A stretch of DNA of 43,130 bases from Escherichia phage Sciku: sequence record MK931439.1. One strand, 5' to 3'. Below the pieces are notes generated by a model. It did not search any database and had not been told where the DNA came from. It saw only the letters and a list, made by a program, of their open reading frames with translations. Shown here piece after piece: positions 3,332 through 41,514 of this stretch (within the stretch, counting starts at the first letter, position 1; each line of letters starts with the position of its first letter). The position numbers and the translations under genes are program-made.

Positions 3332-3358
3332 AAGGCCCTGTTATGGGGCCTTAGTTTT
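3332..3358. terminator. bidirectional rho-independent terminator
   Basis: AAGGCCC-N7-GGGCCTT hairpin followed by TTTTAT, between convergent portal gene and antisense gene. Confidence 0.6.
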
Positions 3359-3878
3359 ATTTAAATCGTGCGGGTATTAGCACCATAAATGCTGAGTTTG
3401 AAAATGATATTTTGCAACCTCTGGTTTGATCCTGGAAATCGAAACGAGCAATTACATTTTTGTATGCCTTAGAAATCTTGTACGCGTCAGCTAAATACTG
3501 CATAGCGAATCCTATACTATCAACCGCACCTGGCTCGATGCGCGCCACGCGCCTCCAGTCAGGAAAGTTTCCGTCTACAACATCTACCGGAAGTGTACAT
3601 ATAAGAGAACGACTATCGTCATAGAAGGAAACACTGCCGTTGGTATGGTTCACCTCCGCGTAGTTAAATTTAGATGGTTCTCTACCTTTGATGTCTATGA
3701 GAATCCCCTTCTCAACGTTTGTCTTCACATTGTCACAGAACAATCTACGACCATCCGTAGACACTATCAATCCTTCCGGGTCTATGTAAAAAGCGTTCAA
3801 ATAGTAGCGCGCATCATTTTTAGCCCTGCAGATTTTCGCCCCTACATACGCAGGGAAAGTAATAACGGTAGTAATCAT
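3357..3878 (-). CDS. hypothetical protein (antisense moron)
   Basis: 173 aa from ATG at 3878 with AGGAGG RBS 6 nt upstream; opposite strand to all flanking structural genes; no recognisable motif. Confidence 0.55.
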   Translation of the reverse strand: MITTVITFPAYVGAKICRAKNDARYYLNAFYIDPEGLIVSTDGRRLFCDNVKTNVEKGILIDIKGREPSKFNYAEVNHTNGSVSFYDDSRSLICTLPVDVVDGNFPDWRRVARIEPGAVDSIGFAMQYLADAYKISKAYKNVIARFDFQDQTRGCKISFSNSAFMVLIPARFK

Positions 3879-3904
3879 TTTATGCCTCCTGTTTAAGTTA
3901 ACTG

Positions 3905-3934
3905 AATAGTACCCTATTATATTGGTGTCTGCAA
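3905..3934 (-). promoter_or_regulatory. sigma70-like promoter with AATAG-N4-CTATT operator (type B)
   Basis: minus strand: -35 TTGCAG (3934-3929), 17-nt spacer, -10 TACTAT (3911-3906); palindrome AATAGtaccCTATT at 3905-3918. Confidence 0.45.
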
Positions 3935-5508: not shown

Positions 5509-5572
5509 AGCGCCTGTGATTATTCCAGTTATTCCACTCAATTGTAAATGTTGGAATAAACTATTCGAATAG

Positions 5573-5601: not shown

Positions 5602-5642
5602 CCACCTGAGCTTGTGAAGTATGAACAAGCGACCGCGGCGCG
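5573..5642 (+). repeat. conserved about 70-bp promoter-leader block, copy 1
   Basis: near-identical to 37503-37572 at a constant offset of 31930; contains a 38-nt identical core CCTGAGCTTGTGAAGTATGAACAAGCGACCGCGGCGCG. Confidence 0.7.
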
Positions 5643-5781
5643 GGCAGGTAACGGAGCGGGACGTAAGTCCTGAGTGTAGTTACGCTGACGCGTTCGGAAG
5701 GGCCATACTCTATTGCTTGTGTAAAAAGTAACTGGTTTACTGAGATTACGCCGTTTCTATGTTTAAATGATAAGGACTAGC

Positions 5782-5808
5782 GCCCAGCTTTAAGGCTGGG
5801 CTTTACTT
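5782..5808 (+). terminator. terminator-like hairpin closing promoter-leader unit 1
   Basis: GCCCAGC-N6-GCTGGGC stem followed by TTTACTT, just upstream of the spanin RBS. Confidence 0.45.
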
Positions 5809-11075: not shown

Positions 11076-12242
11076 ATGGCTACAACTCCTTTTAAGGGCG
11101 CGAATACCGCGCAATTCTATGTGGCGGAAACTACCCCGGGCGTGACACCGACTTCCCCGGTATGGTCGCCGTTGCGTAATACTGGCGGCGTTCCCGCGAT
11201 TACCCGCGACACTTTGACCTCCAACGAACTGGACGGCAGCCGCGAAACTACGTCAATTCGCACTGGTAACAAACAGGTTAGCGGTGAATACGCCATCGAG
11301 CTTAGCTCTAAAAGTCAGGATGACTGGCTGGCAGGTGCTTTAGGCTCTACGTGGCAATCAGGTGTATCCTTAACTGACCTGTCAATTACCGTCGCACCGG
11401 CAGGCAAGACGTTCACCCGTGCTGATGGTAGCTTTATTAACGACGGCGTTGAAGTAGGCGACCTGATTGCGTTTACCAACTTAACGGGAGATAACGCAAA
11501 ACCGTTCATCGTCACTGCGGTAGAGGCACTGGTAGTGACCGGTGCGGGCATCCAGCACACTCTCACCACAGAGACCGCTACTACTGCTGCTAAGACCGGC
11601 GACAAACTGGAAACCGGTAGCCAGTGTAAGACGTTCTCTATTCTCACATGGTACAAAGGCCAGTGCGGCGGGACTGACGCGTACACGCTTACCAAAGGTG
11701 TAGAAGTTTCTGGTTTCACTGTTGAGCAGGCCGTTAACGCGATGGTAACGGGCAGCTTCCCGTTCATCGGGCGCAGCCAGGAGATTCTCACCGAGCCGCC
11801 GTCTGGTTCTGATTTCTCCTCTGTTACGTTTGGTGATGAGCCGTTCTCCTCAGTTGACGTTTCTGTGTTCGATGGCTCTACGCCGTTGCGTTGTGATAGC
11901 TTTACCATCACCAACGACAACAGCGCGTCCGCGCAGTTCGAACTCGGCAACACTAACGTTGCGTTTGTGGAACGTAGCCGCGCGGCCAACACCTTCTCCA
12001 TCTCCGGTAAGCTGTACGACATGGTGATGATTCAGAAGTTTATCAACGAACAGCAGGTAGAGATTAACTCTATTCTGGCGGGGGTAAACGGGGCTATGTC
12101 TTTCAGTCTGAAACGTGCAGAACTCACGGCGGTTACGCCAGAGATTGGTGGTCCTGAGTCAATCACTCAGAGCATAGAAGGACAGTCCACAGGCAATCAA
12201 TATCAATCTTCTATTGTAATACAGCGCATTAGCTACGCGTAA
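11076..12242 (+). CDS. putative major tail protein
   Basis: 388 aa from ATG 11076; Thr/Ser/Gly-rich; upstream of chaperone and tape-measure genes; followed by a strong terminator. Confidence 0.5.
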   Translation: MATTPFKGANTAQFYVAETTPGVTPTSPVWSPLRNTGGVPAITRDTLTSNELDGSRETTSIRTGNKQVSGEYAIELSSKSQDDWLAGALGSTWQSGVSLTDLSITVAPAGKTFTRADGSFINDGVEVGDLIAFTNLTGDNAKPFIVTAVEALVVTGAGIQHTLTTETATTAAKTGDKLETGSQCKTFSILTWYKGQCGGTDAYTLTKGVEVSGFTVEQAVNAMVTGSFPFIGRSQEILTEPPSGSDFSSVTFGDEPFSSVDVSVFDGSTPLRCDSFTITNDNSASAQFELGNTNVAFVERSRAANTFSISGKLYDMVMIQKFINEQQVEINSILAGVNGAMSFSLKRAELTAVTPEIGGPESITQSIEGQSTGNQYQSSIVIQRISYA

Positions 12243-12271
12243 GGAAAAGGCCCCGAAAGGGGCCTTTTCCT
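12243..12271. terminator. bidirectional rho-independent terminator
   Basis: AAAAGGCCCC-GAAA-GGGGCCTTTT perfect hairpin with A-run upstream and T-run downstream. Confidence 0.7.
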
Positions 12272-12429
12272 TATTCCTTCAATTGCATTGGGTAGAAGTT
12301 AACGAGTTCTCCTTTATCCCGAAGCCGTGAATATTCATCTAACGCATCTTGCTGGCTACTCACTGCATAAATATCGTTCCACTCGTCCCATTCTTTGTCG
12401 TATACGCGGATTACATATATTGTTTTCAT
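12271..12429 (-). CDS. small hypothetical protein (moron island)
   Basis: 52 aa ORF MKTIYVIRVYDKEWDEW...; starts 8 nt after the upstream stop. Confidence 0.3.
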   Translation of the reverse strand: MKTIYVIRVYDKEWDEWNDIYAVSSQQDALDEYSRLRDKGELVNFYPMQLKE

Positions 12430-12436
12430 AATATTT

Positions 12437-12667
12437 TCACACATCAATGTTACTCCTGTACTCCCGTAACTTCTCCAGGCTTTCGATTGCCTCAGCTAAG
12501 TCTGTCCAGGTGTCCTTGTGACCACGTAAACCCATACACAATAGCTTCTTCAATGCGTGCTGTAACGCCGGGTCGCGTATGTCGAAGGCGCGTAGCACGT
12601 CGTAAACGTCTACAGTCATAGTGCTGCCGTAGGTGTTTGTCATTGTGCGGTTGTATTTATTTGTCAC
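12437..12667 (-). CDS. hypothetical protein (moron island)
   Basis: 76 aa minus-strand ORF; no motif recognised. Confidence 0.4.
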   Translation of the reverse strand: MTNKYNRTMTNTYGSTMTVDVYDVLRAFDIRDPALQHALKKLLCMGLRGHKDTWTDLAEAIESLEKLREYRSNIDV

Positions 12668-12857
12668 TGTTAACTCTCTTAAATCTGGCTATGCCTGACT
12701 CGTTAATGTTGCCTATTTCAAAGAAGCTGCGATATTTAGGCGAATACATTCTTACATCGCCATTCTCTAGGGTGACTCCTTCGTACACCGCACCTACTTC
12801 GAACCCATTTTTCTCTGCATACGGACTTACCTCGGTGCATTCATACATGTCTTTCAT
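12657..12857 (-). CDS. hypothetical protein (moron island)
   Basis: 66 aa minus-strand ORF overlapping both neighbours. Confidence 0.4.
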   Translation of the reverse strand: MKDMYECTEVSPYAEKNGFEVGAVYEGVTLENGDVRMYSPKYRSFFEIGNINESGIARFKRVNSDK

Positions 12858-13984
12858 CCCAGCATCTCCGGTGAAATAGTTAAACGTGCGACCTCGCCGT
12901 ATTCGGCGCTATAAGTAATTACATTTGCACTGCGGCCTGACATCCACCCGCCGCGGGAGGCGTAGGCATCTTTAGCCGCCAGGGTGCGGTGTTGTTCAAC
13001 AATCATGTTACGGCTTTCTACAATCTTTTGGTGGTGCAGGTGACCTACGTGGGCGTAGCTGTAAACACTCTCGCCGAACGCTTTGCGGAACTTGGCAATC
13101 ATAACCGGTTCGATAATGTCGAATCGCGCCTTATGCCCGTGATGAAAGAACAGCGTCGTTTTGCCGTGTTGCACCATCTTGTAAACATCCGGCGACGTGT
13201 CGACAATCACTCGGCTGTCGTTTGAGTATAAAGTCGCGAACATTTCCGCCAGCCATACGGACCCTACAGGATCGTGATTTCCTTGCACGATAAGCAAGCG
13301 AACGGTTTTATGTTTAACCAGCGCCATATCTACAACACGGCGGACCATACGAATCATGTAGCGGACAAGTTTCTGGTAGCGAGTGTCCGCGTCCAACACA
13401 TGACGTGACTCAGGTGTAACGGCGTCCAGACTATCGAAGTGTACGAAGTCTCCTAGCAGATTAATAACCCCTGTTCCTGCATCCGGTGCTTTCTGAAACG
13501 CCGCATCGAACCATCGAGAGAACAGGTCTTCCGCAATCTTCATATCCCAGTCGTCGCCGCTCTCGTCGGCCCATGCCAGCATACCAAGATGAAAATCAGA
13601 CACGGTGTAAAGATTGAGTAGCTTGTCGTCGCGTTTGGCTCGAGTCGCTTTAACAGGAGCAACGGGCGTAATCTCTGACTTCATGCCTTCGATCACGGCT
13701 TTCATCAATTCAACCTGACGTTCGGCATCGGTGTCGGTCTTAACCCATTGCAACTTAGTGTTGCCGAACTCATCCACAAGTGACGACGTTCCTTTAATCT
13801 TGTAGCCGTCCGGCACAAGGTGGCTAACGTCGCGCCCGTGACCTACGCCTTTCTTCGCCAGCTTCGCTTTACGGATACGGATAACGCGGTCTGAGATTCC
13901 ATACTTACGTGCGATATCAATAATTTTTGTTCCGGCGTTCAATTCTTCCCGTAACTGTTCGTCGGTTATTTTCTTATGAGCCAT
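12854..13984 (-). CDS. HTH domain - calcineurin-like metallophosphoesterase fusion protein
   Basis: N-terminal HTH-like IIDIARKYGISDRVIRIRKAK; then metallophosphoesterase signature blocks SDFHLG, GDFVHFD, GNHD, HHGH, GHLHH; GAGGAA RBS. Confidence 0.7.
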   Translation of the reverse strand: MAHKKITDEQLREELNAGTKIIDIARKYGISDRVIRIRKAKLAKKGVGHGRDVSHLVPDGYKIKGTSSLVDEFGNTKLQWVKTDTDAERQVELMKAVIEGMKSEITPVAPVKATRAKRDDKLLNLYTVSDFHLGMLAWADESGDDWDMKIAEDLFSRWFDAAFQKAPDAGTGVINLLGDFVHFDSLDAVTPESRHVLDADTRYQKLVRYMIRMVRRVVDMALVKHKTVRLLIVQGNHDPVGSVWLAEMFATLYSNDSRVIVDTSPDVYKMVQHGKTTLFFHHGHKARFDIIEPVMIAKFRKAFGESVYSYAHVGHLHHQKIVESRNMIVEQHRTLAAKDAYASRGGWMSGRSANVITYSAEYGEVARLTISPEMLG

Positions 13985-14023
13985 GCTTTACTTCCTCGTG
14001 TTTAGGATTTGTCCTATACTAGC

Positions 14024-14215
14024 TCACTTCTCTTTGACGTTCGAGTTGCACGCCCAGATTAAAATAAATACCCACGGCAGCAGAACCCAACCGAGAAACA
14101 GATTAGCCATGAATATCGCTAATTTAGCTTTATGGTTGCGCATATGCGCCACGAGAAATGGGATAAAATAAACTAAAACGATAATGATTAAGAAGAACAT
14201 AGTAATACCTGTCAT
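14024..14215 (-). CDS. small two-TM membrane protein, putative superinfection-immunity (Imm-like) protein
   Basis: 63 aa from ATG 14215 with AGGAGC RBS; two hydrophobic helices; LFLGWVLLPWVFILIWA resembles the Imm-type motif as I recall it. Confidence 0.45.
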   Translation of the reverse strand: MTGITMFFLIIIVLVYFIPFLVAHMRNHKAKLAIFMANLFLGWVLLPWVFILIWACNSNVKEK

Positions 14216-14255
14216 GGTGTAGCTCCTGTTCGAGTTAACATTGTTGGTGTAAGTG

Positions 14256-14285
14256 AATAGTATCCTATTATGTTGGGGTGCGCAA
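14256..14285 (-). promoter_or_regulatory. sigma70-like promoter with AATAG-N4-CTATT operator (type B)
   Basis: minus strand: -35 TTGCGC (14285-14280), 17-nt spacer, -10 TACTAT (14262-14257); 26-bp block here is an exact inverted copy of 37811-37836. Confidence 0.5.
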
Positions 14286-14393
14286 GTAATGTGATAGAAT
14301 AATTTTGCGCCTAGTGTCGCACACGAAAAGCGGGTGGTTCCCGTCTGGCGCATTTACCATTAACCTGTAACCTCTTAACCAAAGGATTAAAGA

Positions 14394-15175: not shown

Positions 15176-17504
15176 TGTAGCTAGTTTAGTTGTAAAAGTA
15201 TCAGAGCAAGGCGCGAAAGCTACATCAGACCGTCTTGATAACCTTTCCAAGTCTGCAAAGGTAGCCGGAGCTGCGGTAGCGGGCCTCGCTTCCATCGTCG
15301 CCGCTACCGCGTACAAGGCCGCACAGGAACTGGTAGACTCCCAACGGCAACTGGACAAGATGTCCGCCAGCCTGAAAACACTAACCGGAAGCACGCAGGG
15401 TGCAAGACAGGCGTTAAGCATCCTGCAAGACTTCGCGCGCGACACCCCGTATGGTCTTGAACAGGCGGTAGAGGGATTCCGTAAACTGGTGGCTCTCGGC
15501 CTTACACCGTCAGAAGAAGCGTTGCGCTCCTATGGCAACACTGCCGCTGCTATGGGTAAAGACCTTAATCAGATGATTGAGGCCGTTGCGGACGCCAGTA
15601 CATTTGAATTTGAGCGCCTTAAAGAATTCGGCATCAAGGCCAAGCAAAACAAAGACGATGTTGAATTTACATTCCAGGGCACCACTACGGTAGTTAAGAA
15701 GAGCGCTGCCGACATCGAGCAATACCTGCTCAACATTGGTAACGTAAACTTCGCGGGGGCTATGGCGGACCAGGCCAACACACTTAACGGCGCCATCGCC
15801 AGTGCCAGCGACTCATGGTCGCAGTTAAAAATGACACTGGCTACCAGCCTTGATGTTGGTGCTCTTGCGGAGCCTATCCGGTACATCGATGATTTAATCC
15901 AGGAACTTAACGCACAGGTAGCATCCGGCGAACTCGCTGCTGAGATGCGTATGTGGGGCGACATCGCGTCAGAAGTGGGAAGCGCGATAGAGATGTCGTT
16001 CGACGCGGCATTTGGTTTCGTAGGCGACGCAATAAACGGGCTGAATGAACTTTGGGACTTTAGTAGTAAAAGTATCACCGATAGCGGTGAACAAACGGCG
16101 ACAACCATCGCGGAATCAGCCGCCGATGCGCTCGATTTCATTGCGGAAGAATTTACCGCGATGGAGCGATTCTTTGAAGATATGGTTAAAGGGGCACAGG
16201 ACGCTGGCCGGTTGGTGAAAGCTGCCTTCACACCAGGGGAATCTGTAGACGTAGCAAAAAACATTAACTTCCAGTTAGGGATGGCACTGGATACTCAGCG
16301 CGATGTTGCGGACCTGACCCGTAAAAGTTTCCGCGAACAGGTGGAGGCTCAGCAAAATATTGTCGCGCTTAAACGCGCGGCATATGACATCGACAAAGAA
16401 GCCGCTAAGGGAGAAGGTCTTAGTAAATTTAAGGTAACTGGTACTGGTGGCGGATCCGAAGATGATAGCGCAGGTGCAAAAGCCGCTAAGAAAGCCGCAG
16501 ATGCGTTCGAGCGCCAGAAGAAAGCCGCTGAGGATTTCTACTACCAGTCGATTCATCTCAATGATGACGTATTCCAGAAAATAGAAGCCAACCAGGAACA
16601 GCAGCTAACCAAGCTACAGGAGTTTTACGGCAATCAGCTTCTTAGCGACCAGCAATACGAGAACGCTAAAACTCAGATTATGCTGGAGGCGGACACTGCA
16701 CGTCAGGAAGAACTCGCCAAGCGAGAGAAAGAACGGCAGGAAAAGAACCAGAAAGGCGAGGACTTCATGGCTCAGATTATGGGTCAGAATGCCGCAGAGC
16801 TTGAGCTTTTGGAGATTCAGGAACAACAAAAACTTGACGTTGCAGACCGATATCGCGAACAGAACCTTATTAACGAGGAGCAGTACCAGGCTGCGGTTAA
16901 TGCTATAAACGACCAGTATGCTTTGAAACGTGCCAACGCTACCGGTAACGCTTTCGGAATGATGGCGGATAACATGAAGGCCTCACTAGGGGAGGCGTCT
17001 GCCGCATACAAAGCGTTTGCCATTGCGCAGGCCACCATCGCCACATACACATCCGCCATCGAGGCTTATAAATCTGCATCGGCTATCCCTATTGTTGGAT
17101 GGGTGCTCGGGCCTGTAGCAGCAGCTACAGCGGTAGCGGCAGGTCTCGCTAACATCAGCAAGATTCGTTCGGCCCGTGAGCAGGGCGGTAACTTAGCCGC
17201 AGGTCAGTTATCTACTATCGCGGAACGTAACAAGCCAGAAGTTATTATGCCTGCAGGGGCGTCACGCGTACGTACCGCGGAACAGATGCGCCAGATTATG
17301 GGCGAGAACGGCAACAAGTCAGGCGGTGACAGCGTGACAATCGTCAACAACACCACCGGACGAGTTGATTCCGCCGTTACAGAGCGTGACGACGAAGGGC
17401 GGTTACGTGTTATCATCAGTGAAACAGTATCGGCGGCGTTACAAGACAGCAACAGTGCAATCTCCAAGTCCCGCCGGGCTACACGAAACCAGCCAGGGTA
17501 TTAA
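15168..17504 (+). CDS. tail tape measure protein
   Basis: 778 aa, Ala/Gln/Glu-rich helical sequence with a hydrophobic segment near the C-terminus; follows the chaperone pair. Confidence 0.8.
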   Translation: MADVASLVVKVSEQGAKATSDRLDNLSKSAKVAGAAVAGLASIVAATAYKAAQELVDSQRQLDKMSASLKTLTGSTQGARQALSILQDFARDTPYGLEQAVEGFRKLVALGLTPSEEALRSYGNTAAAMGKDLNQMIEAVADASTFEFERLKEFGIKAKQNKDDVEFTFQGTTTVVKKSAADIEQYLLNIGNVNFAGAMADQANTLNGAIASASDSWSQLKMTLATSLDVGALAEPIRYIDDLIQELNAQVASGELAAEMRMWGDIASEVGSAIEMSFDAAFGFVGDAINGLNELWDFSSKSITDSGEQTATTIAESAADALDFIAEEFTAMERFFEDMVKGAQDAGRLVKAAFTPGESVDVAKNINFQLGMALDTQRDVADLTRKSFREQVEAQQNIVALKRAAYDIDKEAAKGEGLSKFKVTGTGGGSEDDSAGAKAAKKAADAFERQKKAAEDFYYQSIHLNDDVFQKIEANQEQQLTKLQEFYGNQLLSDQQYENAKTQIMLEADTARQEELAKREKERQEKNQKGEDFMAQIMGQNAAELELLEIQEQQKLDVADRYREQNLINEEQYQAAVNAINDQYALKRANATGNAFGMMADNMKASLGEASAAYKAFAIAQATIATYTSAIEAYKSASAIPIVGWVLGPVAAATAVAAGLANISKIRSAREQGGNLAAGQLSTIAERNKPEVIMPAGASRVRTAEQMRQIMGENGNKSGGDSVTIVNNTTGRVDSAVTERDDEGRLRVIISETVSAALQDSNSAISKSRRATRNQPGY

Positions 17505-19789: not shown

Positions 19790-22335
19790 CATTACATTAC
19801 ACCCGTAACGAAGACGGTACTTTCGACCGCGAACGGCACAACGTACCGCCGATGGAATACGTCGTCGCTAACATCCCCGACGGGGTGCCTGTACGTATTT
19901 ACCGTGGCGAGATCGGCGAGGACACGGAAGTAACTGAAGATTTCGAAGCGCTGAAAGAAGACGATGTTTTCCATATTATCGAAGGCGCTGGTGGCGGTGG
20001 CGGTTTTCTGGGTAAACTCCTGGACCCTTTGGGTGTGCTTAAATTTGTTACCAAGTTGATTTCTCCGTCGCAGAAAACGCCTAAAACGAGTTTAGCGAAC
20101 CAGCAGGCTGAGTCCCCCAACAACAGCCTGACGGACCGAAGCAATAAACCCCGTCCATATGAACGGTCGTATGATATTTGCGGCAGAGTCCAGACTATCC
20201 CTAATGACCTCATGACTACCTATAAAATATTCGATGAATCTGGTCGCATTATTGAATACGGATACTACGATGCCGGTCGTGGGTATCTGGACATCAAGGC
20301 CGAAGATATTACCGACGGCGATACTAAGGTACAGGAGATTACGGGGACCTCTGTCGCGGTGTACGCGCCGTTTACATCCCCCAACAATACAAATACCCCG
20401 CAGCTTCTGGTGGGGGAACCTATCAATCAGAATCTTTATATAACTATCGCGTCTAATGAAGTAGATGGAGCCGTTCTTAAAGCCCAGAACGATATTCGGG
20501 TCAACCCAAGCGACACGGGCCGCGTGAGATATGACTCTGCTACAAAAATTGGATACCTGTATGACGACACGGGGGATTCTGGCTTCGCGGAAATATTATC
20601 TGTTGGTGACACCGCGTCGTTCAATAACTTTGACGTTCCGGACGTAACAAATACCAACGGCAACTTTCGTGTTCTTTATGTCGATAACTTCGAGCTGCGG
20701 GTCGACACCGGCGGCGCGTCTAATTGGGCTGCTTTAGGCTCAACCACCTATTCACTTTCCCAGAGAAGTGACACGTGGGTAGGCCCCGTGGATACGTATG
20801 AAAGAACATTAACCGACTGGACCACCTTAAACCGCCTGGAAGTTGAACGCGTAGTAGCCAACATCGCTGCCGCTAACGGTATGTATAAAGACAACGGCAG
20901 TAAATTGCGTACGTCGGTAACTATTGAACTCCAATACCAACTACTCGATGAAACCGGTGCCCCATACGGGAGTATCTATTCAAAACAGGCCGTTATATCT
21001 GGTCGGTCCGCCGACTACACCGGAGTTACTATTTACGCCGACTTGCCCATGAGGTCGAAAGTTAGGGTACGTGCCCGTCGTGTTACCAACCTGGACCTTG
21101 ATTTCGAGGGCACCGTGGTAGACGAGGTTTCCTATATCAACCTTTACGGTCAGGTCCGTGACACTACGCCACATTACGGCAATCGTACCACCGTACACTC
21201 GGCACGTAAGCAGACGCCGCGGGCCGCAGAGATTAAGCAACCACAGTTACGTATGGTCGCCACAGAGATGGTGTACAAATACCTCGGTAATGGTGTATTC
21301 GACACCGTAATGACACCGAATACTCAGGCCATTCAATCATTAATACGTCTCGCCCGTGACCCGGTAGTAGGTAATCTCAACCTAACAACATCCAATATGG
21401 ACAAGTTGTTAGCGACTCAAACCGAAATAGAAAACTATTTCGGTAACGTTGAGGCTGGGCAATTCTGCTACACTTTTGACGACTATAAAATGACCATGCA
21501 GGATATCATCAGCACAATAGCCGATGCTATTTTCTGCACTCCATATCGTAAAGGGCAAGACATATTACTGGATTTCGAGCGCCCGCGTATGGGGCCGGAA
21601 ATGGTATTCACACATCGAAGTAAGACAACAGCTTCGGAAAAGTGGACGCGCACATTCAACGACGCTCAGGTATACGATAGTCTTAAGTTCTCCTACATCG
21701 ACCCAGATACTAACGTAAAAGAGACCATCAGCATTCCCGCCGAGGGCGGTGTTAACACAGAAACGTATGACTCTAAAGGTATACGTAATTATCGTCAGGC
21801 GTACTGGGCGGCGTACCGTCGGTACCAGAAGAACCTGTTGAAGAAGGTGACGGTATCATTCACGGCGACAGAAGAAGGGGTTTTTGTGCTTCCAGGACGG
21901 GCAATAAGCGTAGTTAAAGGTTCACGCGTAGCACCCCAAGACGGTTATGTTATTGCGGTTAATGGCCTTACCCTGACGCTATCACAGCCTGTTACGTTTA
22001 CCCCAGGAGATGACCACTCCATCATCCTCAAGAAGCGAGACGGAGGAGTTCAAAGTGTTGCCGTTGTGCCGGGAAGCCACGACCGTGAAGTGGTTATGCT
22101 ATCTGCGCCACAGGAAGCAATCTACACGGGGAATAGTGCGCTAAAAACTGAGTTTTCATTCGGCAACGAAGCAAGGCATAATGCTCAGATGATTCTTGTT
22201 TCCACAGTTGACCCCGGAGATGACAGAACAGTCAAGATTACGGGTTACAACTATGACGACGGATTCTATAAATACGATGGCGTCGCGCCATACGGCAGCG
22301 GTTTCTCCGACGGATTCAGCAATGGTTTTAATTAA
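19780..22335 (+). CDS. tail tip / host specificity protein (J-like)
   Basis: about 850 aa ORF after the NlpC/P60 gene; start set at in-frame TTG 19780 preceded by GGAGA (uncertain; the track ORF opens at 19705). Confidence 0.55.
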   Translation: MALTLHYTRNEDGTFDRERHNVPPMEYVVANIPDGVPVRIYRGEIGEDTEVTEDFEALKEDDVFHIIEGAGGGGGFLGKLLDPLGVLKFVTKLISPSQKTPKTSLANQQAESPNNSLTDRSNKPRPYERSYDICGRVQTIPNDLMTTYKIFDESGRIIEYGYYDAGRGYLDIKAEDITDGDTKVQEITGTSVAVYAPFTSPNNTNTPQLLVGEPINQNLYITIASNEVDGAVLKAQNDIRVNPSDTGRVRYDSATKIGYLYDDTGDSGFAEILSVGDTASFNNFDVPDVTNTNGNFRVLYVDNFELRVDTGGASNWAALGSTTYSLSQRSDTWVGPVDTYERTLTDWTTLNRLEVERVVANIAAANGMYKDNGSKLRTSVTIELQYQLLDETGAPYGSIYSKQAVISGRSADYTGVTIYADLPMRSKVRVRARRVTNLDLDFEGTVVDEVSYINLYGQVRDTTPHYGNRTTVHSARKQTPRAAEIKQPQLRMVATEMVYKYLGNGVFDTVMTPNTQAIQSLIRLARDPVVGNLNLTTSNMDKLLATQTEIENYFGNVEAGQFCYTFDDYKMTMQDIISTIADAIFCTPYRKGQDILLDFERPRMGPEMVFTHRSKTTASEKWTRTFNDAQVYDSLKFSYIDPDTNVKETISIPAEGGVNTETYDSKGIRNYRQAYWAAYRRYQKNLLKKVTVSFTATEEGVFVLPGRAISVVKGSRVAPQDGYVIAVNGLTLTLSQPVTFTPGDDHSIILKKRDGGVQSVAVVPGSHDREVVMLSAPQEAIYTGNSALKTEFSFGNEARHNAQMILVSTVDPGDDRTVKITGYNYDDGFYKYDGVAPYGSGFSDGFSNGFN

Positions 22336-24724: not shown

Positions 24725-24750
24725 AAAAGGCCCCTTTCGGGGCCTTTTCT
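24725..24750. terminator. bidirectional rho-independent terminator
   Basis: AAAAGGCCCC-TTTC-GGGGCCTTTT hairpin between convergent structural and replication blocks. Confidence 0.7.
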
Positions 24751-24888
24751 CTACTCTTCGGATAACTTCTCCAGTACAAACGCCAGTTGCGCATTAGCGG
24801 CGTCTCTCTGTTGCCGTAGTCGTAGAACCTCTTCTTCGAGTTCCTCGATACGTTTTTGCAATGCCGGAATTGGGGCTATGATGTTCAT
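24751..24888 (-). CDS. small coiled-coil hypothetical protein
   Basis: 45 aa ORF whose ATG overlaps the helicase stop (ATGA); heptad-like IEELEEEVLRLRQQ. Confidence 0.3.
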   Translation of the reverse strand: MNIIAPIPALQKRIEELEEEVLRLRQQRDAANAQLAFVLEKLSEE

Positions 24889-27568: not shown

Positions 27569-27856
27569 CTAACTATAATAGTTCGCTATTAGGTCGTCAA
27601 CCTGTTTAAACGAACCAACGACAAAAACATTTGCACCACGTTTACGCATCCGCTCGTGCTCTCGTAGCTGGTGGGGGTCCGGCTTCGTGTTTTCATCTTT
27701 CTTAACCTCGACGAACCAGATGACGCTGCCGGGGAGGATTACCAGCAGGTCAGGGGCGCCCACTCTATTTTCGTACGACAATTTGCGTACGAGGCCCCCC
27801 AGGGCCTCGAATCGGTCTTTTGCGTATTTCTGAACAACTCCTTCTTTAGTCGCCAT
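27569..27856 (-). CDS. VRR-NUC domain nuclease
   Basis: 95 aa with PD-(D/E)xK-like core GAPDLLVILPG...FVEVKK typical of VRR-NUC. Confidence 0.6.
   Translation of the reverse strand: MATKEGVVQKYAKDRFEALGGLVRKLSYENRVGAPDLLVILPGSVIWFVEVKKDENTKPDPHQLREHERMRKRGANVFVVGSFKQVDDLIANYYS
27572..27600 (-). promoter_or_regulatory. sigma70-like promoter with AATAG-N4-CTATT operator (type A)
   Basis: minus strand: -35 TTGACG (27600-27595), 17-nt spacer, -10 TATAGT (27577-27572); palindrome AATAGttcgCTATT 27577-27590. Confidence 0.5.
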
Positions 27857-31456: not shown

Positions 31457-31485
31457 ACTATAATAGTTTGCTATTCAGGTGTCAA
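31457..31485 (-). promoter_or_regulatory. sigma70-like promoter with AATAG-N4-CTATT operator (type A)
   Basis: minus strand: -35 TTGACA (31485-31480), 17-nt spacer, -10 TATAGT (31462-31457); palindrome AATAGtttgCTATT 31462-31475. Confidence 0.55.
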
Positions 31486-33916: not shown

Positions 33917-33945
33917 ACTATAATAGCGAACTATTCACTTGTCAA
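33917..33945 (-). promoter_or_regulatory. sigma70-like promoter with AATAG-N4-CTATT operator (type A)
   Basis: minus strand: -35 TTGACA (33945-33940), 17-nt spacer, -10 TATAGT (33922-33917); palindrome AATAGcgaaCTATT 33922-33935. Confidence 0.55.
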
Positions 33946-34009
33946 TGGGTTTTTCTAAAATAATTAATATGGTACTATTCACGCATCAACTAACTAAGGA
34001 GTAACTGAC

Positions 34010-34225
34010 ATGCAACCATCTGAACTAGGCATCCGTGTAGAACAACGCCGTAAAGAACTCGGCATCTCCCAGCGCCGTCTGGCTGTCCTGACTGGCGTTT
34101 CCCAGGGCGCGATTAACCAACTGGCACTTGGGGTAACTCAGGACGTCCGCCCGGCGACGCTGTTTAAACTGGCGGAAGTGCTGGAGATAGACGCCAAGTG
34201 GCTGGCGTTAGGTGAAGGGGCTTAA
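34010..34225 (+). CDS. Cro/CI-type helix-turn-helix transcriptional regulator
   Basis: 71 aa; HTH ISQRRLAVLTGVSQGAINQLALG typical of XRE/Cro family; AAGGAG RBS; only plus-strand gene inside the minus-strand block. Confidence 0.7.
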   Translation: MQPSELGIRVEQRRKELGISQRRLAVLTGVSQGAINQLALGVTQDVRPATLFKLAEVLEIDAKWLALGEGA

Positions 34226-37003: not shown

Positions 37004-37216
37004 TTATTTATCGCCTGCAAACCACGCGTGCGCAGAATCATAGAAACGACATTTACTTAATACCTCGATTGGCATCTTAATAATGCGCGTCGGTTCCGAC
37101 AAATGATTAGGCTTACATATTTCTGCATAGAATCCGCTGTCAGTAATTTCTGACGCAAACTTAAACCAGTATTTAACTTTACCGTCTTCAAAGTAACAAC
37201 CCATACGCCCAATCAT
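37004..37216 (-). CDS. hypothetical protein
   Basis: 70 aa ORF overlapping (ATGA) the stop of the upstream HTH gene. Confidence 0.4.
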   Translation of the reverse strand: MIGRMGCYFEDGKVKYWFKFASEITDSGFYAEICKPNHLSEPTRIIKMPIEVLSKCRFYDSAHAWFAGDK

Positions 37217-37395
37217 TTCACGTTCTCCTTAATCCATGCTTCAACTTTATTACGGTCAAATGTACCCGGTAAACGGCGGCCCATTACTTTAATACAGCAG
37301 TCAGGGAATTTACCACTGCGCAGCCAGTTATTAATTGTCTGACGTGTCACACCGATACGTTCTGCTACTTCATTCTGGGTCATGTAATGTTGCAT
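37213..37395 (-). CDS. small HTH DNA-binding protein
   Basis: 60 aa from ATG 37395 with AGGAGA RBS; HTH-like QNEVAERIGVTRQTINNWL; first gene of the leftward block. Confidence 0.55.
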   Translation of the reverse strand: MQHYMTQNEVAERIGVTRQTINNWLRSGKFPDCCIKVMGRRLPGTFDRNKVEAWIKENVK

Positions 37396-37502: not shown

Positions 37503-37531
37503 TTGACTTTTACTAAGAAATATGGTAAGCT
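37503..37531 (+). promoter_or_regulatory. sigma70-like promoter (copy 2 of duplicated promoter-leader unit)
   Basis: TTGACT (37503-37508), 17-nt spacer, TAAGCT (37526-37531); same architecture as 5573-5601. Confidence 0.5.
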
Positions 37532-37572
37532 CAGCCTGAGCTTGTGAAGTATGAACAAGCGACCGCGGCGCG
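37503..37572 (+). repeat. conserved about 70-bp promoter-leader block, copy 2
   Basis: near-identical to 5573-5642 with the same 38-nt core; weaker similarity continues for about 70 nt. Confidence 0.7.
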
Positions 37573-37717
37573 CGGCAGGCGAAACGAGCACGTGTAGCGT
37601 GTGGAGTGAGGCTCGCTAGCGCGTTTGGGAGGCCCCAAGTCTATTGTAATTCCAGCCTAAGTAGCTAAGTTACTGATTTGCCGTAGGTTAGAACCGCCAG
37701 CTCACTCACTCACTCTT

Positions 37718-37750
37718 GGTGCCTTCGGCACCACGTTCGTTTCGTTTCGC
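37718..37750 (+). terminator. terminator-like hairpin closing promoter-leader unit 2
   Basis: GGTGCC-TTCG-GGCACC hairpin followed by ACGTTCGTTTCGTTTCG; preceded by a (CTCA)x3 repeat. Confidence 0.4.
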
Positions 37751-37800
37751 TCGCTACCCCCCTTAAACGAAAGAATCACAACGGCAACGTAACTAATCTC

Positions 37801-37829
37801 TTGCACACCCCAACATAATAGGATACTAT
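37801..37829 (+). promoter_or_regulatory. sigma70-like promoter with AATAG-N4-CTATT operator (type B)
   Basis: -35 TTGCAC (37801-37806), 17-nt spacer, -10 TACTAT (37824-37829); palindrome AATAGgataCTATT 37817-37830. Confidence 0.5.
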
Positions 37830-37863
37830 TCACTTATCGAAACGAGACAGAGGAGTGAGGGCT

Positions 37864-38055
37864 ATGTTTAAGAAGGGTCAGTTGGTTAAATACTCCGACG
37901 ATAAACACGGCATAATTGAATTAAAATCTGCTTTATTTCCAGGAGAGTACGTAGTTACCATGCAAAATGTGAGAGGAGTAAATTCACAAATATACGTAGC
38001 GGAGGAGAACTTAAAACTAATCGGCAACAATTTTAAATTCAAAGAGGCGAAGTGA
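37864..38055 (+). CDS. small hypothetical early protein
   Basis: 63 aa from ATG 37864 with GGAG RBS; first gene after promoter 37801. Confidence 0.4.
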   Translation: MFKKGQLVKYSDDKHGIIELKSALFPGEYVVTMQNVRGVNSQIYVAEENLKLIGNNFKFKEAK

Positions 38056-38243
38056 TGGAAGAATTAATTTACGACGTATACGTCGACGGGGTTATCTCAG
38101 AAACGACAAGTAATAAAGATTACGCAATAAAGCTGTATATGTATTACGCGGCCATTGTAGGAAAGATGGTAGAAGTGCGGGAGCGAACGGCATCGAATCA
38201 TGGTGCCAGTGCCGACGACTCTGAGGGAGGTTGCCGTAAATGA
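38052..38243 (+). CDS. small hypothetical protein
   Basis: 63 aa ORF overlapping the upstream stop. Confidence 0.4.
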   Translation: MMEELIYDVYVDGVISETTSNKDYAIKLYMYYAAIVGKMVEVRERTASNHGASADDSEGGCRK

Positions 38244-38431
38244 GAATTCGTATAACTGATGTTGAACAAACATGCCCTGAGGAATACCAGGACGTTAGCC
38301 TTGCGTACTTTGGCGTCTCTGTTGGTGATGAGTTCGACGTAGGGATTAGTTGCGAATATGGGTTTGTTGTAAATCATCGCGGCGAGAATTTGTTCGTCCG
38401 TAATTCTGAATGCGAAGTTCTGGAGGACTAA
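38240..38431 (+). CDS. small hypothetical protein
   Basis: 63 aa ORF overlapping the upstream stop; acidic. Confidence 0.4.
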   Translation: MRIRITDVEQTCPEEYQDVSLAYFGVSVGDEFDVGISCEYGFVVNHRGENLFVRNSECEVLED

Positions 38432-38434
38432 GTT

Positions 38435-38596
38435 ATGAGAGAAGCGTTCGAACGGTGGGCCGTCGTTGAGGGTCTGCCGGTTAACAAGGGTTCGAAGAAA
38501 GAGTACCTGAACGTTAAGACGCGTCTCGCGTGGCGGGCGTGGAAAGCTGGTGCGCAATATCGTGCCGGTATGACAGGTGGTGTAACAGGTCAATAG
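38435..38596 (+). CDS. small hypothetical protein
   Basis: 53 aa ORF below track cutoff; GGAGGA RBS 7 nt upstream. Confidence 0.35.
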   Translation: MREAFERWAVVEGLPVNKGSKKEYLNVKTRLAWRAWKAGAQYRAGMTGGVTGQ

Positions 38597-38733
38597 TTTA
38601 GGATTTTACTGAGTGACTTACGCTGCTACACAGCAGCGTATCATTTTTCTCATTTTTGTCCTATTTCACCAAACGCAACAATCGAATCGACTATTGCAGG
38701 AGATGCAATAATACAAACACCAATAAAATTTAC

Positions 38734-38762
38734 TTGCACGCTGGGGAAGAATAGGATACTAT
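38734..38762 (+). promoter_or_regulatory. sigma70-like promoter with AATAG-N4-CTATT operator (type B)
   Basis: -35 TTGCAC (38734-38739), 17-nt spacer, -10 TACTAT (38757-38762); palindrome AATAGgataCTATT 38750-38763. Confidence 0.5.
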
Positions 38763-38885
38763 TCATTTACACAAACGAGAGGAGAGGCAGAATATGGTTA
38801 CTTTGATGATTATGGAGTTCGAAAACAGCGCTGCAACTTACCGCGACATGTTCAACGAAACGATTAGCTAAGCAGGAGAAATAAG

Positions 38886-39095
38886 ATGGTACAGAGATAC
38901 GAGATAATAAGATGGGGTCTGCCGGAGATGGCTAAGTACCCATACGGTGACTACGTTGAGTATGACAGCTATAAGGAACTGGAGGCCCGACTGGAAGAAG
39001 TCAACGCTGAGTTACAGAAATACAAAGACCAGTTCCCGGATTACGTCGAGTGCGCGAACTGCGGGTCGGTTACACATGTGGAAGGGGTGGATTGA
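38886..39095 (+). CDS. small hypothetical protein, paralog A (MVQRY family)
   Basis: 69 aa; N-terminus MVQRYEI and Y-x-EY-x-SY-x-ELEA pattern shared with the next gene. Confidence 0.45.
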   Translation: MVQRYEIIRWGLPEMAKYPYGDYVEYDSYKELEARLEEVNAELQKYKDQFPDYVECANCGSVTHVEGVD

Positions 39096-39349
39096 TGGTG
39101 CAGAGATACGACTTAACAGAATACTACGTGAGTGGTGCGGTAGATATAACGCCTGTCCCGGACTCGCATGAAGGGCGTTATGTAAGCTACGAAGACTACG
39201 CGCAACTCGAAGCTGAACTCATGAAAGTAAAAGCCGCAGCCCGTTGTCTTGTGCGAGAAGCAGGTAAGGTGTATAGCGATTATAGTGACGTTATAGCACC
39301 TGAGTTTGTAGACCAGCAAACCATACACGAACTAGGTATTCTGTTATGA
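39095..39349 (+). CDS. small hypothetical protein, paralog B (MVQRY family)
   Basis: 84 aa from ATG 39095; N-terminus MVQRYDL; same pattern as 38886-39095. Confidence 0.45.
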   Translation: MVQRYDLTEYYVSGAVDITPVPDSHEGRYVSYEDYAQLEAELMKVKAAARCLVREAGKVYSDYSDVIAPEFVDQQTIHELGILL

Positions 39350-39639
39350 GCCTTGCAACTGACATCCTGAAACGCAGCGGCCTTGCGCCGCTGTCGCCGA
39401 GAGCAAACACTCAGATATACAAGCGCCGCCGTAATACGCTGTACCCAGAGATACAGGAACGACGTAAAGCTATCCGCGCCTGTGGATTCCAGAACGGGAA
39501 GGCCGTGAATCTCGGTGAGTTTAAAACACAAGAACGCGCCGCAATCGCTAATCGACTATTTAATTACTGGAAATCGCTGGGGTACGATGATATTCCGACG
39601 AAACCCCAGAGACGACAATACATCTGGAGGCACAAATGA
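39346..39639 (+). CDS. hypothetical protein
   Basis: 97 aa basic ORF with ATGA overlaps on both sides. Confidence 0.4.
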   Translation: MSLATDILKRSGLAPLSPRANTQIYKRRRNTLYPEIQERRKAIRACGFQNGKAVNLGEFKTQERAAIANRLFNYWKSLGYDDIPTKPQRRQYIWRHK

Positions 39640-40073
39640 CTACTATCGCGTTTGACGGAAAGACGATGGCCTGTGACACCCGAGTAACCGGAGACCACAT
39701 CTACAACACAGATACCAAGATATATGAGAACGAGTTTGTTGTTATCGGTGTAGCAGGCAATGCTGAGGCTGGTATCCTTTTAGTGAAGGACGATAGTATT
39801 TTAGTGCCTAAGCACTACGATTTTGATTTCTCTGCTTTGGTGTGGGTTAAAGACATCGAAACGTTGTGCAAAGTAGAATTCTATAAATCATGGGATTGTG
39901 CACTAAGTTCGGTTATCCCTGTTGCAGATGGTTTTGCCGCCGTCGGTTCCGGTGCACCTTATGCACTGGCGGCTATGTATTTAGGTAATACGGCAACACG
40001 TGCAATTACTATAGCAGAGCAATTCGACCCTAACACCGGCGGCAATATTATTACCAAACAACTATTAGGATAA
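39636..40073 (+). CDS. HslV-like (proteasome-type Ntn-hydrolase) peptidase
   Basis: N-terminal MTTIAFDG with Thr2 as candidate nucleophile; GVAGNAEAG and AVGSGAPYALAA align with HslV GFAGGTADA and GSGGPYAQAA as recalled; 145 aa; GGAGG RBS. Confidence 0.6.
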   Translation: MTTIAFDGKTMACDTRVTGDHIYNTDTKIYENEFVVIGVAGNAEAGILLVKDDSILVPKHYDFDFSALVWVKDIETLCKVEFYKSWDCALSSVIPVADGFAAVGSGAPYALAAMYLGNTATRAITIAEQFDPNTGGNIITKQLLG

Positions 40074-41463: not shown

Positions 41464-41485
41464 ATCTATTTTCTGTAATGACTAG

Positions 41486-41514
41486 TTGACTATTATTCTG
41501 ACACCAATTATATT
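41486..41514 (+). promoter_or_regulatory. sigma70-like promoter
   Basis: TTGACT (41486-41491), 17-nt spacer, TATATT (41509-41514). Confidence 0.45.

What the first reader, a model, noticed from the sequence alone, without database searches (positions are those of the whole stretch)
37801..38763. Type-B operator promoters (TTGCAC-17-TACTAT) upstream of the small early genes, with exact inverted copies in front of both morons
Promoters at 37801-37829 and 38734-38762 carry AATAGgataCTATT overlapping the -10. The same palindrome in the same promoter context occurs on the minus strand at 14256-14285 (the 26-bp block 14253-14278 is an exact inverted copy of 37811-37836) and at 3905-3934. Both antisense morons are therefore wired into the same putative regulon as the early genes rather than carrying unrelated promoters.
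Basis: seen in the sequence. Interest (0 to 1): 0.6.

Follow-up and report, generated by a model that had tools for sequence, protein, structure and literature searches.

The report
Shared operator-promoters wiring phage accessory cassettes
A virulent E. coli phage (Kagunavirus) puts one 14-bp palindromic repressor-type site inside nearly all of its early and replication-gene promoters, including those of two backward-facing accessory gene cassettes. This is a real but fairly ordinary phage regulon whose motif had already been listed, and mislabelled, in genome papers.

Summary
Four σ70-type promoters (TTGCnn-17-TACTAT) carry AATAG-N4-CTATT over the −10: two before the rightward small genes and two on the minus strand before the antisense cassettes. 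Corrections: the minus-strand −35s are TTGCGC and TTGCAG, and the inverted repeat is 31 bp exact (36/37), not 26. Only the slot-2 copy is near-exact.

The palindrome is not specific to "type B". It has 8 exact copies (0.04 expected) plus one imperfect copy, including three replication-gene promoters and the divergent control region of a Cro-like gene. Across related phage loci, 203 of 231 palindromes sit in 17-bp-spacer promoters at three registers. The arms are invariant and the centre is free, which is how an operator behaves.

The antisense slots keep this promoter while their cargo varies (18 unrelated families), so the co-wiring claim is supported. Cornellviruses carry a symmetric variant palindrome at equivalent promoters.

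The likeliest mechanism is steric repression by a phage protein. The 434-Cro-like protein is my leading candidate (about 0.45) and a small HTH_17 protein the second. Neither covaries cleanly with the motif, and nothing has been tested experimentally.

Two papers already list the motif from PHIRE scans, and one calls the sites phage-RNAP promoters although no RNAP gene is annotated. Interest is modest.

The parts
37801..37836 (+). Class-B promoter P_B1: -35 TTGCAC 37801-06, 17-nt spacer, -10 TACTAT 37824-29. Palindrome AATAGGATACTATT at 37817-37830. Predicted start about 37836. Drives four small genes, 37864-38596.
   Evidence: conserved in Kagunavirus loci
38734..38769 (+). Class-B promoter P_B2: TTGCAC 38734-39, TACTAT 38757-62, palindrome 38750-38763. 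Preceded by terminator 38619-38640. First ATG at 38794.
14250..14286 (-). Slot-2 promoter: TTGCGC 14285-80, TACTAT 14262-57, palindrome 14269-14256. 36/37 inverted copy of 37800-37836.
   Evidence: (I1); exact palindrome in all Kagunavirus/Jerseyvirus slot-2 loci
12271..14215 (-). Slot-2 antisense cassette: Imm-like superinfection immunity protein, metallophosphatase and three small ORFs. 47.4% GC.
12245..12268 (.). Bidirectional terminator closing slot 2. Member of a repeated terminator family.
   Evidence: D6, D8, I3, I5
3899..3934 (-). Slot-1 promoter: TTGCAG 3934-29, TACTAT 3911-06, palindrome AATAGGGTACTATT 3918-3905, conserved leader TTCAGTTAACTTAAACAGGAG.
   Evidence: same promoter and leader before 18 cargo families
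3357..3878 (-). Slot-1 cargo, 173 aa. Annotated as a sliding clamp; best PHROG match is 'RusA-like'. 42.7% GC against 52-55% in the flanks.
3332..3352 (.). Bidirectional terminator closing slot 1.
33917..33945 (-). Class-A promoter P_A1: TTGACA-17-TATAGT, with palindrome O1 (33922-33935) in the spacer. Drives the leftward replication genes. O1 also overlaps the -35 of the rightward candidate cro promoter TTCACT-16-TAAAAT (33934-33961).
33966..33979 (.). O2: imperfect palindrome AATATGGTACTATT between P_A1 and the cro-like start. The weakened upstream arm is conserved in all Kagunavirus loci; Ent1 has ATTAC at the same place.
34010..34225 (+). Cro-like HTH_3 regulator, 71 aa. Leading candidate binder.
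31457..31485 (-). Class-A promoter P_A2: TTGACA-17-TATAGT, palindrome 31462-31475. Lies upstream of the SSB-like gene.
27572..27600 (-). Class-A promoter P_A3: TTGACG-17-TATAGT, palindrome 27577-27590. Lies upstream of gp38 and the helicase.
37213..37395 (-). HTH_17 (excisionase/MerR-like) protein, 60 aa. Second candidate binder.

Best explanation
The four elements are host-RNA-polymerase (σ70) promoters. Each has a 14-bp dyad operator, AATAG-N4-CTATT (read 4-6-4: AATA-N6-TATT), laid over the -10 region.

The same operator occurs in the spacer/-10 of three replication-gene promoters and twice in the divergent control region next to a Cro-like gene. Together these sites form one phage-wide regulon covering the small rightward genes, the replication genes and the two antisense accessory cassettes. 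The structural genes lack the motif.

A dimeric phage-encoded repressor binding the dyad would occlude the -10/spacer and turn these promoters down together as it accumulates. This is the way Cro turns down early transcription in lambdoid lytic growth.

My preferred binder is the 71-aa 434-Cro-like protein (34010-34225), at a sub-claim probability of about 0.45. The class-B promoter with its conserved leader also acts as a standard head for interchangeable accessory cargo, each cassette closed by a repeated bidirectional terminator.

Shown here: the sequence anatomy, the enrichment, the conservation, the register variation and the cargo turnover. Inferred: promoter activity, repression and the identity of the binder.
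For: Enrichment. There are 8 exact copies against 0.04 expected, and it is the only multi-copy palindrome of its class in the window.

Promoter context. Seven of the eight exact copies, plus the imperfect O2 copy, lie in promoter-like sites. The other exact copy (21426) is an orphan inside a tail gene. Each class-A and class-B site has a 17-nt spacer. Each of the four class-B promoters has an SD-ATG 24-35 nt downstream in the right orientation.

Relatives. In related phage loci, 203 of 231 exact palindromes sit exactly N4, N7 or N10 after a TTGnnn -35. That puts the dyad centre at about -18.5, -15.5 or -12.5.

Conservation pattern. The arms are as invariant as the -35 and -10, although the upstream arm lies in the normally sequence-neutral spacer. 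The central 4 nt vary freely unless they form part of the -10.

Orientation. The extended asymmetric motif ATAATAG-N4-CTATTCA flips orientation relative to transcription between class A and class B. That is operator behaviour, not RNAP-element behaviour.

Conservation between genera. The palindrome is identical at orthologous promoters in Jerseyvirus Ent1.

Concerted change. Cornellviruses have TATTA-N6-TAATA (3 exact against 0.02 expected), a single symmetric change in both arms. It occurs at an early rightward promoter and at or upstream of two antisense genes (one of them with a TTGACA -35); a one-arm variant box marks the cro-divergent promoter and another early promoter.

Why Cro. It is the only annotated DNA-binding regulator shared by all three genera. 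Its closest solved relative is 434 Cro (E = 8e-6), which from established knowledge binds 14-bp operators of the form ACAA-N6-TTGT. The invariant Gln aligns with 434 Cro Gln28, the residue that contacts operator position 1, and that position is invariably A here. Two operator copies flank its own divergent control region.

Cargo turnover. There are 30 promoters and 18 unrelated first-ORF families.
Against: No transcription-start, binding or reporter data exist for any of these phages.

The Cro recognition helix differs between Kagunavirus (QGAINQ) and Jerseyvirus (QSLITH) although their operators are identical. Jerseyvirus and Cornellvirus helices are similar (QSLITH, QSAISH) although their operators differ. 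So there is no clean covariation.

The HTH_17 protein is 80-86% conserved between the two genera that share the palindrome and is absent from Cornellvirus. This is an equally suggestive pattern.

The class-B -10 hexamer (TACTAT) matches consensus at only 4 of 6 positions.

The only RNA-seq study (Kagunavirus K1B4) puts the slot-2 immunity gene and the DNA polymerase in a 'late-peaking' class, not an early one. However, phage reads never exceeded 9% and sampling ran to 120 min, so the infection was asynchronous.
Confidence: 0.62

Rival explanations
1. The regulon and operator are the same, but the binder is the 60-aa HTH_17 (excisionase/MerR-like) protein at 37213-37395, not the Cro-like protein.
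For: It is confined to Kagunavirus and Jerseyvirus, the two genera with the identical palindrome. It is 80-86% identical between them, against 46-47% for Cro, and is absent from Cornellvirus-type genomes that lack AATAG-N4-CTATT. Its recognition helix and wing are nearly identical between genera. In the K1B4 RNA-seq paper the only annotated early gene is an HTH protein, gene 008; I infer from its position in the gene numbering that this is the HTH_17 orthologue. No palindrome lies near its candidate promoter at 37548-37519.
Against: Kagunavirus LM02P1 has a 69%-identical HTH_17 with a changed recognition helix (SPMTLNRW against TRQTINNW) and a changed wing, yet keeps 8 exact palindromes. Cornellviruses run an analogous variant-palindrome system without any HTH_17. 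From general knowledge, small Xis/HTH_17 proteins usually bind direct repeats as monomers rather than a 14-bp dyad.
Confidence: 0.17
2. The conserved block is mainly a recombination and shuffling signal, a PeSL-like composite promoter-terminator motif. The dyad symmetry would then be incidental to overlapping -10-like sequences, and no dedicated repressor exists.
For: 18 cargo families follow the same promoter and leader. Two promoters 23.5 kb apart are identical at 36 of 37 positions. Empty slots retain a promoter-core scar directly abutting the terminator hairpin. The terminators are themselves a repeated family. There is PeSL precedent in T4-type phages (PMC2839356, PMC4122927).
Against: Shuffling does not explain why the upstream arm is invariant at three different registers, including in core replication-gene promoters that are not variable cassettes. 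It also does not explain the symmetric two-arm change across the Cornellvirus sites. Shuffling and operator roles are not mutually exclusive.
Confidence: 0.1
3. The sites are promoters for a phage-encoded RNA polymerase, as stated for the same consensus in the fBC-Eco01 genome paper.
For: PHIRE recovers the motif as a repeated roughly 20-mer upstream of genes.
Against: No RNA polymerase gene exists. Every ORF of 700 aa or more has another assigned function. Each site has a good σ70 -35 at a 17-nt spacing. The motif sits at three registers and in both orientations relative to transcription, which is incompatible with a single-subunit RNAP promoter.
Confidence: 0.01
4. The dyad is bound by a host factor, or by an activator or σ-modifier, rather than by a phage repressor.
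For: Neither phage HTH protein covaries cleanly with the motif. E. coli and Salmonella hosts are close relatives and could supply the same protein.
Against: Cornellviruses also infect Salmonella yet use a different dyad. A dyad centred at -12 to -19 at three non-helical-phase registers suits occlusion, not activation. I could recall no enterobacterial regulator with this consensus (memory only, not tested).
Confidence: 0.07

Closest known systems
Phage 434 / lambdoid Cro with its O_R/O_L operators
   Same: A small HTH_3 protein whose closest solved relative is 434 Cro. The dyad is 14 bp with conserved outer bases and a free centre. Multiple copies overlap the core of divergent promoters next to the cro gene. 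The predicted role is turning down early transcription during lytic growth.
   Different: There is no cI partner and no lysogeny module, because the phage is virulent. Operators are dispersed over at least 9 sites across the genome instead of two clusters. The half-site sequence (AATAG) is unrelated to ACAA. Binding has not been demonstrated, and the recognition helix does not covary with the operator.
PHIRE 'conserved phage promoters' reported for Kagunaviruses Golestan (PMC7203180, Table S4) and fBC-Eco01 (PMC9825357)
   Same: It is the same motif at the same positions, including before the two backward-facing cassettes and twice before the DicA/Cro-like gene.
   Different: Those papers only list the 20-mers. 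One attributes them to a phage RNA polymerase. Neither recognises the dyad, the σ70 -35/-10 context, the register classes, the link to a regulator or the conservation across genera.
PeSL composite promoter-terminator cassettes of T4-type phages (PMC2839356, PMC4122927)
   Same: A conserved early-type promoter and a conserved stem-loop terminator bracket highly variable ORFs. Empty sites show promoter core and hairpin juxtaposed.
   Different: The phage family is different (siphovirus). Cassettes are antisense insertions within the structural operon. The promoter carries a dyad operator. No recombination intermediates or junctions were analysed here.
Morons of lambdoid phages, and the 'two potential morons' described in the related structural module of Serratia phage η (PMC3918226)
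   Same: They are autonomous promoter-gene-terminator units inserted between conserved structural genes. They are absent or different in close relatives and have lower GC.
   Different: Classical morons are expressed from the repressed prophage and carry their own unrelated promoters. Here the phage is virulent and the promoters belong to the phage's own regulon.

Membership tests
σ70-dependent bacterial promoter | -35 and -10 hexamers resembling TTGACA/TATAAT with a 16-18-nt spacer, including the key A2 and T6 of the -10 | tested here: met
   TTGCAC, TTGCGC or TTGCAG (4-5 of 6), exactly 17 nt, then TACTAT (4 of 6, A2 and T6 present) at all four sites. 91 of 92 unique class-B relatives have TACTAT.
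σ70-dependent bacterial promoter | Correct orientation and distance to a downstream gene with a ribosome-binding site | tested here: met
   SD plus ATG lies 24-35 nt after the palindrome at all four sites and in 30 of 30 related cassette promoters.
σ70-dependent bacterial promoter | A mapped transcription start, or in-vitro transcription by the host holoenzyme | not testable with these tools
   No TSS data were found. The K1B4 RNA-seq paper gives gene-level classes only.
Cro/CI-type (434-like) operator | Short dyad (about 14-17 bp) with conserved outer half-sites and a variable centre | tested here: met
   Arms are invariant and the central 4 nt are free unless part of the -10.
Cro/CI-type (434-like) operator | Multiple copies overlapping promoter cores, including the regulator's own divergent control region | tested here: met
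   O1 at 33922-35 and O2 at 33966-79 lie between the leftward TTGACA-17-TATAGT promoter and the cro-like gene.
Cro/CI-type (434-like) operator | Operator sequence covaries with the regulator's recognition helix across relatives | tested here: inconclusive
   The regulon-wide symmetric change in Cornellvirus supports a trans factor. The Kagunavirus and Jerseyvirus helices differ despite an identical operator. HTH_17 also fails one comparison.
Cro/CI-type (434-like) operator | Demonstrated specific binding by the regulator | not testable with these tools
   Needs EMSA, footprinting or ChIP.
Moron (Hendrix-type) | Autonomous unit with its own promoter and terminator inserted between genes that are adjacent in relatives | tested here: met
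   Slot 1 is empty in many Kagunaviruses, leaving a scar next to the terminator. Cargo is variable, and bidirectional terminators close both slots.
Moron (Hendrix-type) | Atypical base composition | tested here: met
   Slot-1 cargo is 42.7% GC against 55.3% and 52.5% in the flanks. Slot 2 is 47.4% against 52.9% and 49.0%.
Moron (Hendrix-type) | Expressed from the prophage, independently of the phage lytic programme | tested here: not met
   No integrase or cI is annotated and the subfamily is virulent. The promoters carry the phage's own regulon motif.
Phage-RNA-polymerase promoter (label used in PMC9825357) | The phage encodes its own RNA polymerase | tested here: not met
   No RNAP appears among the annotated genes, and all large ORFs have other assignments.
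Phage-RNA-polymerase promoter (label used in PMC9825357) | Fixed orientation and position of the motif relative to the start site | tested here: not met
   There are three registers, and the asymmetric flanks occur in both orientations.
PeSL-like mobile regulatory cassette | Conserved promoter and stem-loop motifs bracketing variable ORFs | tested here: met
PeSL-like mobile regulatory cassette | Recombination junctions or excised circles mapping to the motifs | not tested
   Junction mapping across natural variants was not done. Circles need wet-lab work.

The most novel reading that the evidence does not exclude
Guernseyvirinae run a cI-less, Cro-only circuit. One 14-bp operator, embedded at three registers in σ70 promoters, controls the entire early/middle programme. 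The operator-promoter plus a repeated bidirectional terminator also forms a PeSL-like 'socket' inside the structural operon. Unrelated accessory genes (superinfection exclusion, possibly anti-defence) are swapped into this socket and so inherit correct timing automatically. Operator and regulator specificity have shifted together at least once, in Cornellvirus.
Probability: 0.3. Interest if true: 0.55.

Novelty: new member of a known kind. Interest (0 to 1): 0.38.

Why it matters
Kagunaviruses and Jerseyviruses are widely isolated as therapeutic and biocontrol phages, yet their transcription programme is essentially uncharacterised. This analysis gives three things:
- A concrete, testable map: at least 9 operator-bearing promoters and two candidate regulators.
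- A correction to a published mislabel, the 'phage RNA polymerase promoters'.
- An explanation of how backward-facing accessory cassettes with ever-changing cargo are kept under the phage's own temporal control.

The conserved promoter-leader-terminator socket is also a natural insertion site for engineering payloads with native regulation. Conceptually it is a familiar design, repressor operators over early promoters, so it would not surprise a specialist much.

Tried and rejected
- Rfam scan of the whole window: no hits.
- Phage-RNAP promoter reading: rejected, because there is no RNAP gene and the registers and orientations vary.
- Hairpin or RNA-level role for the dyad: rejected, because it lies upstream of the predicted start at every register.
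- Covariation tests for the binder. Cro fails on Kagunavirus versus Jerseyvirus. HTH_17 fails on LM02P1. vB_STM-ZS turned out to be Cornellvirus-like and not an independent lineage.
- Other small proteins with the same phylogenetic profile (gp38 at 94%, gp21 at 91% identity between genera): no Pfam or PHROG function and no obvious DNA-binding features.
- Supplement of the K1B4 transcriptome paper: it holds only host annotation and no per-gene phage classes.
- Anany 2015 (Jerseyvirinae proposal) and Bull 2010 (K1 phages) are not held in the library.
- My first promoter-orientation heuristic mis-oriented class-B sites, and my first regex used N11 instead of N10. Both were corrected.
- Structure prediction and the large protein-database searches were not used. 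They would not identify DNA specificity.
Full report
**Context.** The window is a near-copy of Escherichia phage Shashou (Kagunavirus, Guernseyvirinae), a virulent siphovirus. Identity is 99.8-99.9% apart from a clean 1,021-bp deletion corresponding to Shashou 38849-39868. The plus strand carries terminase, head and tail genes, and from 37.86 kb a run of small genes followed by the lysis genes. The minus strand carries the replication block (24.7-37.4 kb). Two short minus-strand cassettes interrupt the structural operon. Slot 1 (3357-3878) lies between the portal and head-morphogenesis genes. Slot 2 (12271-14215) lies between the tail tube and tail chaperone genes and encodes an Imm-like superinfection immunity protein, a metallophosphatase and small ORFs.

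**Observation.** All four elements exist as described, with small corrections.
- P_B1: TTGCAC(37801)-17-TACTAT(37824-29), with AATAGGATACTATT at 37817-30.
- P_B2: TTGCAC(38734)-17-TACTAT(38757-62), with the same palindrome at 38750-63.
- Slot 2, minus strand: TTGCGC(14285-80)-17-TACTAT(14262-57).
- Slot 1, minus strand: TTGCAG(3934-29)-17-TACTAT(3911-06), with AATAGGGTACTATT.

The inverted repeat between P_B1 and the slot-2 promoter is 31 nt exact and 36 of 37 overall. The slot-1 copy shares only the architecture, arms and -10. Chance is excluded: AATAG-N4-CTATT has 8 exact copies against 0.04 expected, and it is the only palindrome of its size class with 4 or more copies.

**The motif is broader than the finding.** The other exact copies are at 27577, 31462 and 33922. 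An imperfect copy lies at 33966, and an orphan lies inside a tail gene at 21426. The first three sit in minus-strand promoters of the form TTGAC(A/G)-17-TATAGT, with the palindrome in the spacer. These drive replication genes. Sites 33922 (O1) and 33966 (O2) lie in the 123-bp divergent region between the replication operon and a 71-aa Cro-like HTH_3 gene at 34010-34225. So 'type B' is one placement of a single operator. The palindrome starts 10 nt after the -35 in class B and 4 nt after it in class A.

**Comparative evidence.** I collected 37 IMG/VR loci around the cro-like gene, 27 around slot 2 and 74 around slot 1, plus whole genomes of Ent1 (Jerseyvirus), SP-031 and vB_STM-ZS (Cornellvirus type) and LM02P1.
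- Of 231 exact palindromes in the Kagunavirus/Jerseyvirus material, 83 lie 4 nt after a TTGA-type -35 (TTGACA/G), 108 lie 10 nt after TTGCnn, and 12 lie 7 nt after TTGCAT (Jerseyvirus slot 2).
- All of these give a 17-nt spacer, with -10 hexamers TATAGT, TACTAT and TATTAT respectively.
- The arms score as high as the -35 and -10. The central four bases vary freely unless they contribute to the -10.
- The flanks are asymmetric (ATAATAG...CTATTCA), and this asymmetric unit is inverted relative to transcription between class A and class B.

An element that keeps its sequence while changing register and orientation relative to the polymerase contacts is best read as a binding site for a separate dimeric protein. 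At centres of -12.5 to -18.5, such a protein would act as a repressor.

**The cassettes.**
- Every Kagunavirus and Jerseyvirus slot-2 locus has an exact palindrome in its leftward promoter.
- Around slot 1, Kagunaviruses either carry the TTGCAG-type promoter with the leader TTCAGTTAACTTAAACAGGAG, or are empty. Empty slots retain only AATAGCATACTATA directly against the portal terminator.
- Across these loci, 30 antisense class-B promoters precede first ORFs from 18 unrelated families.
- Slot-1 cargo here is 42.7% GC against 52-55% in the flanks.
- The terminators closing the slots are themselves a repeated family.
- Most Jerseyviruses carry an amidase in slot 1 without the palindrome, so wiring of that slot is lineage- and cargo-dependent.

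**Who binds.**
- The Cro-like protein is present in all three genera and in true lambdoid phages next to cI. Its closest solved relative is 434 Cro. From established knowledge, 434 Cro binds 14-bp ACAA-N6-TTGT operators, with Gln28 contacting position 1. The aligned Gln is invariant here, as is the A at operator position 1.
- Its recognition helix nevertheless differs between Kagunavirus (QGAINQ) and Jerseyvirus (QSLITH) despite identical operators.
- The 60-aa HTH_17 protein (37213-37395) is 80-86% conserved between just those two genera and absent from Cornellvirus. That fits the palindrome's distribution.
- However, LM02P1 has a markedly altered HTH_17 helix and wing and still has 8 exact palindromes.
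- Cornellviruses carry TATTA-N6-TAATA (3 exact against 0.02 expected). It differs by one symmetric change in both arms. It lies at an early rightward promoter and at or upstream of two antisense genes, and a one-arm variant box marks the cro-divergent promoter.

A concerted symmetric change across a regulon implies a trans-acting dimer that is also present in Cornellvirus. This favours the shared Cro-like protein. I put Cro-like at about 0.45, HTH_17 at about 0.17 and something else at the remainder.

**Literature.** The motif is not new as a string. Golestan's Table S4 lists seven PHIRE 'conserved promoters' at exactly these positions. The fBC-Eco01 paper gives the consensus tgAATAGTa-ccTATTat-T and assigns it to 'the phage-encoded RNA polymerase'. 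No such gene exists in these genomes. I found no paper that recognises the dyad, its σ70 context or a regulator. The K1B4 RNA-seq study is too coarse: phage reads were at most 9%, sampling ran to 120 min and there were only three classes. It does place an HTH gene among four early genes, and it groups the slot-2 immunity gene with the DNA polymerase, not with the adjacent structural genes. The related structural module of Serratia phage η was already described as interrupted by two 'morons' with their own promoters and terminators. PeSL cassettes of T4-type phages are the closest analogue for the promoter-terminator socket.

**Verdict.** This is a real, well-conserved operator-promoter family whose presence before both antisense cassettes is confirmed. 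Mechanistically it is most likely a Cro-type repression regulon in a cI-less virulent phage. It is a new member of a known kind, partly pre-described, with modest interest. The binder and the timing remain to be shown experimentally.

Noticed in passing
window 5573-5801 and 37503-37745 (+): Two paralogous units of about 200 nt (first 70 nt 87% identical, 74% overall). Each starts with TTGACT-17-TAAGCT and ends at a terminator-like hairpin. Rfam has no hit. They overlap tiny annotated ORFs (Shashou gp7 and gp56) that may be spurious. They could be a pair of phage small RNAs or leaders. The second copy lies directly upstream of P_B1.
   Followed up: partly
window 41481-41514 (+); also 5568-5581: A quasi-palindrome ACTAG-TTGA-CTATT lies over the -35 of a strong TTGACT-17-TATATT promoter, after the endolysin terminator and ahead of the small genes and terminase. 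It is conserved in all Kagunavirus loci and, with the mismatch in the other arm, in Ent1. AATAGTTGACTTTT similarly precedes the 5573 unit. This may be a fourth context for the same binder.
   Followed up: partly
window 21426-21439: An orphan exact palindrome AATAGAAAACTATT lies inside the tail tip (J-like) gene with no promoter context. It is absent from Ent1, and LM02P1 has GATAG at that place. At 0.04 copies expected by chance, its presence is slightly odd.
   Followed up: partly
window 38842-38850 (Shashou 38849-39868): Relative to Shashou the window has a clean 1,021-bp deletion with about 9 bp of junction overlap, just downstream of P_B2. It truncates the first gene to 25 aa and removes about four small early genes.
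   Followed up: yes
window 3326-3352, 5487-5508, 12239-12268, 24725-24754: The bidirectional terminators at module boundaries form one repeated family, AAAGGCCCCGAAAGGGGCCTTTT (78-93% similar). They bracket the same variable slots as the class-B promoters.
   Followed up: partly
L069-L137 around position 2462 (empty slot 1 in many Kagunaviruses): Where slot 1 is empty, a promoter-core remnant AATAGCATACTATA sits 3 nt from the portal terminator hairpin. This is a composite promoter-terminator scar reminiscent of PeSL motifs. Golestan's 'promoter before ORF3' is this scar.
   Followed up: partly
L003 (SP-031) 25438, 26069, 26596: Cornellvirus SP-031 has three exact copies of a different palindrome, GAATAA-N-TTATTC, clustered around its antisense genes gp36 and gp39 and the spanin genes. 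Its function is unknown.
   Followed up: no
window 3357-3878 (-): The slot-1 cargo is annotated as 'DNA polymerase III sliding clamp' in Shashou. It has no Pfam hit, and its best PHROG match is a family labelled RusA-like resolvase (E = 2e-33), with weak processivity-factor hits. The annotation is uncertain.
   Followed up: partly
window 37519-37548 (-): A promoter-like TTCACA-18-CATATT without any palindrome overlaps, back to back, the TTGACT-17-TAAGCT promoter of the 37503 unit. It is the best candidate promoter for the HTH_17/primase-helicase operon.
   Followed up: no
L002 (Ent1) 15700-15870: In Jerseyvirus slot 2 the same palindrome is flanked by -35-like hexamers on both strands: TTGCAT leftward and TTGACG rightward, each 7 nt from the palindrome. 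This suggests a shared operator for face-to-face promoters toward the Imm gene and the tail chaperone gene.
   Followed up: no
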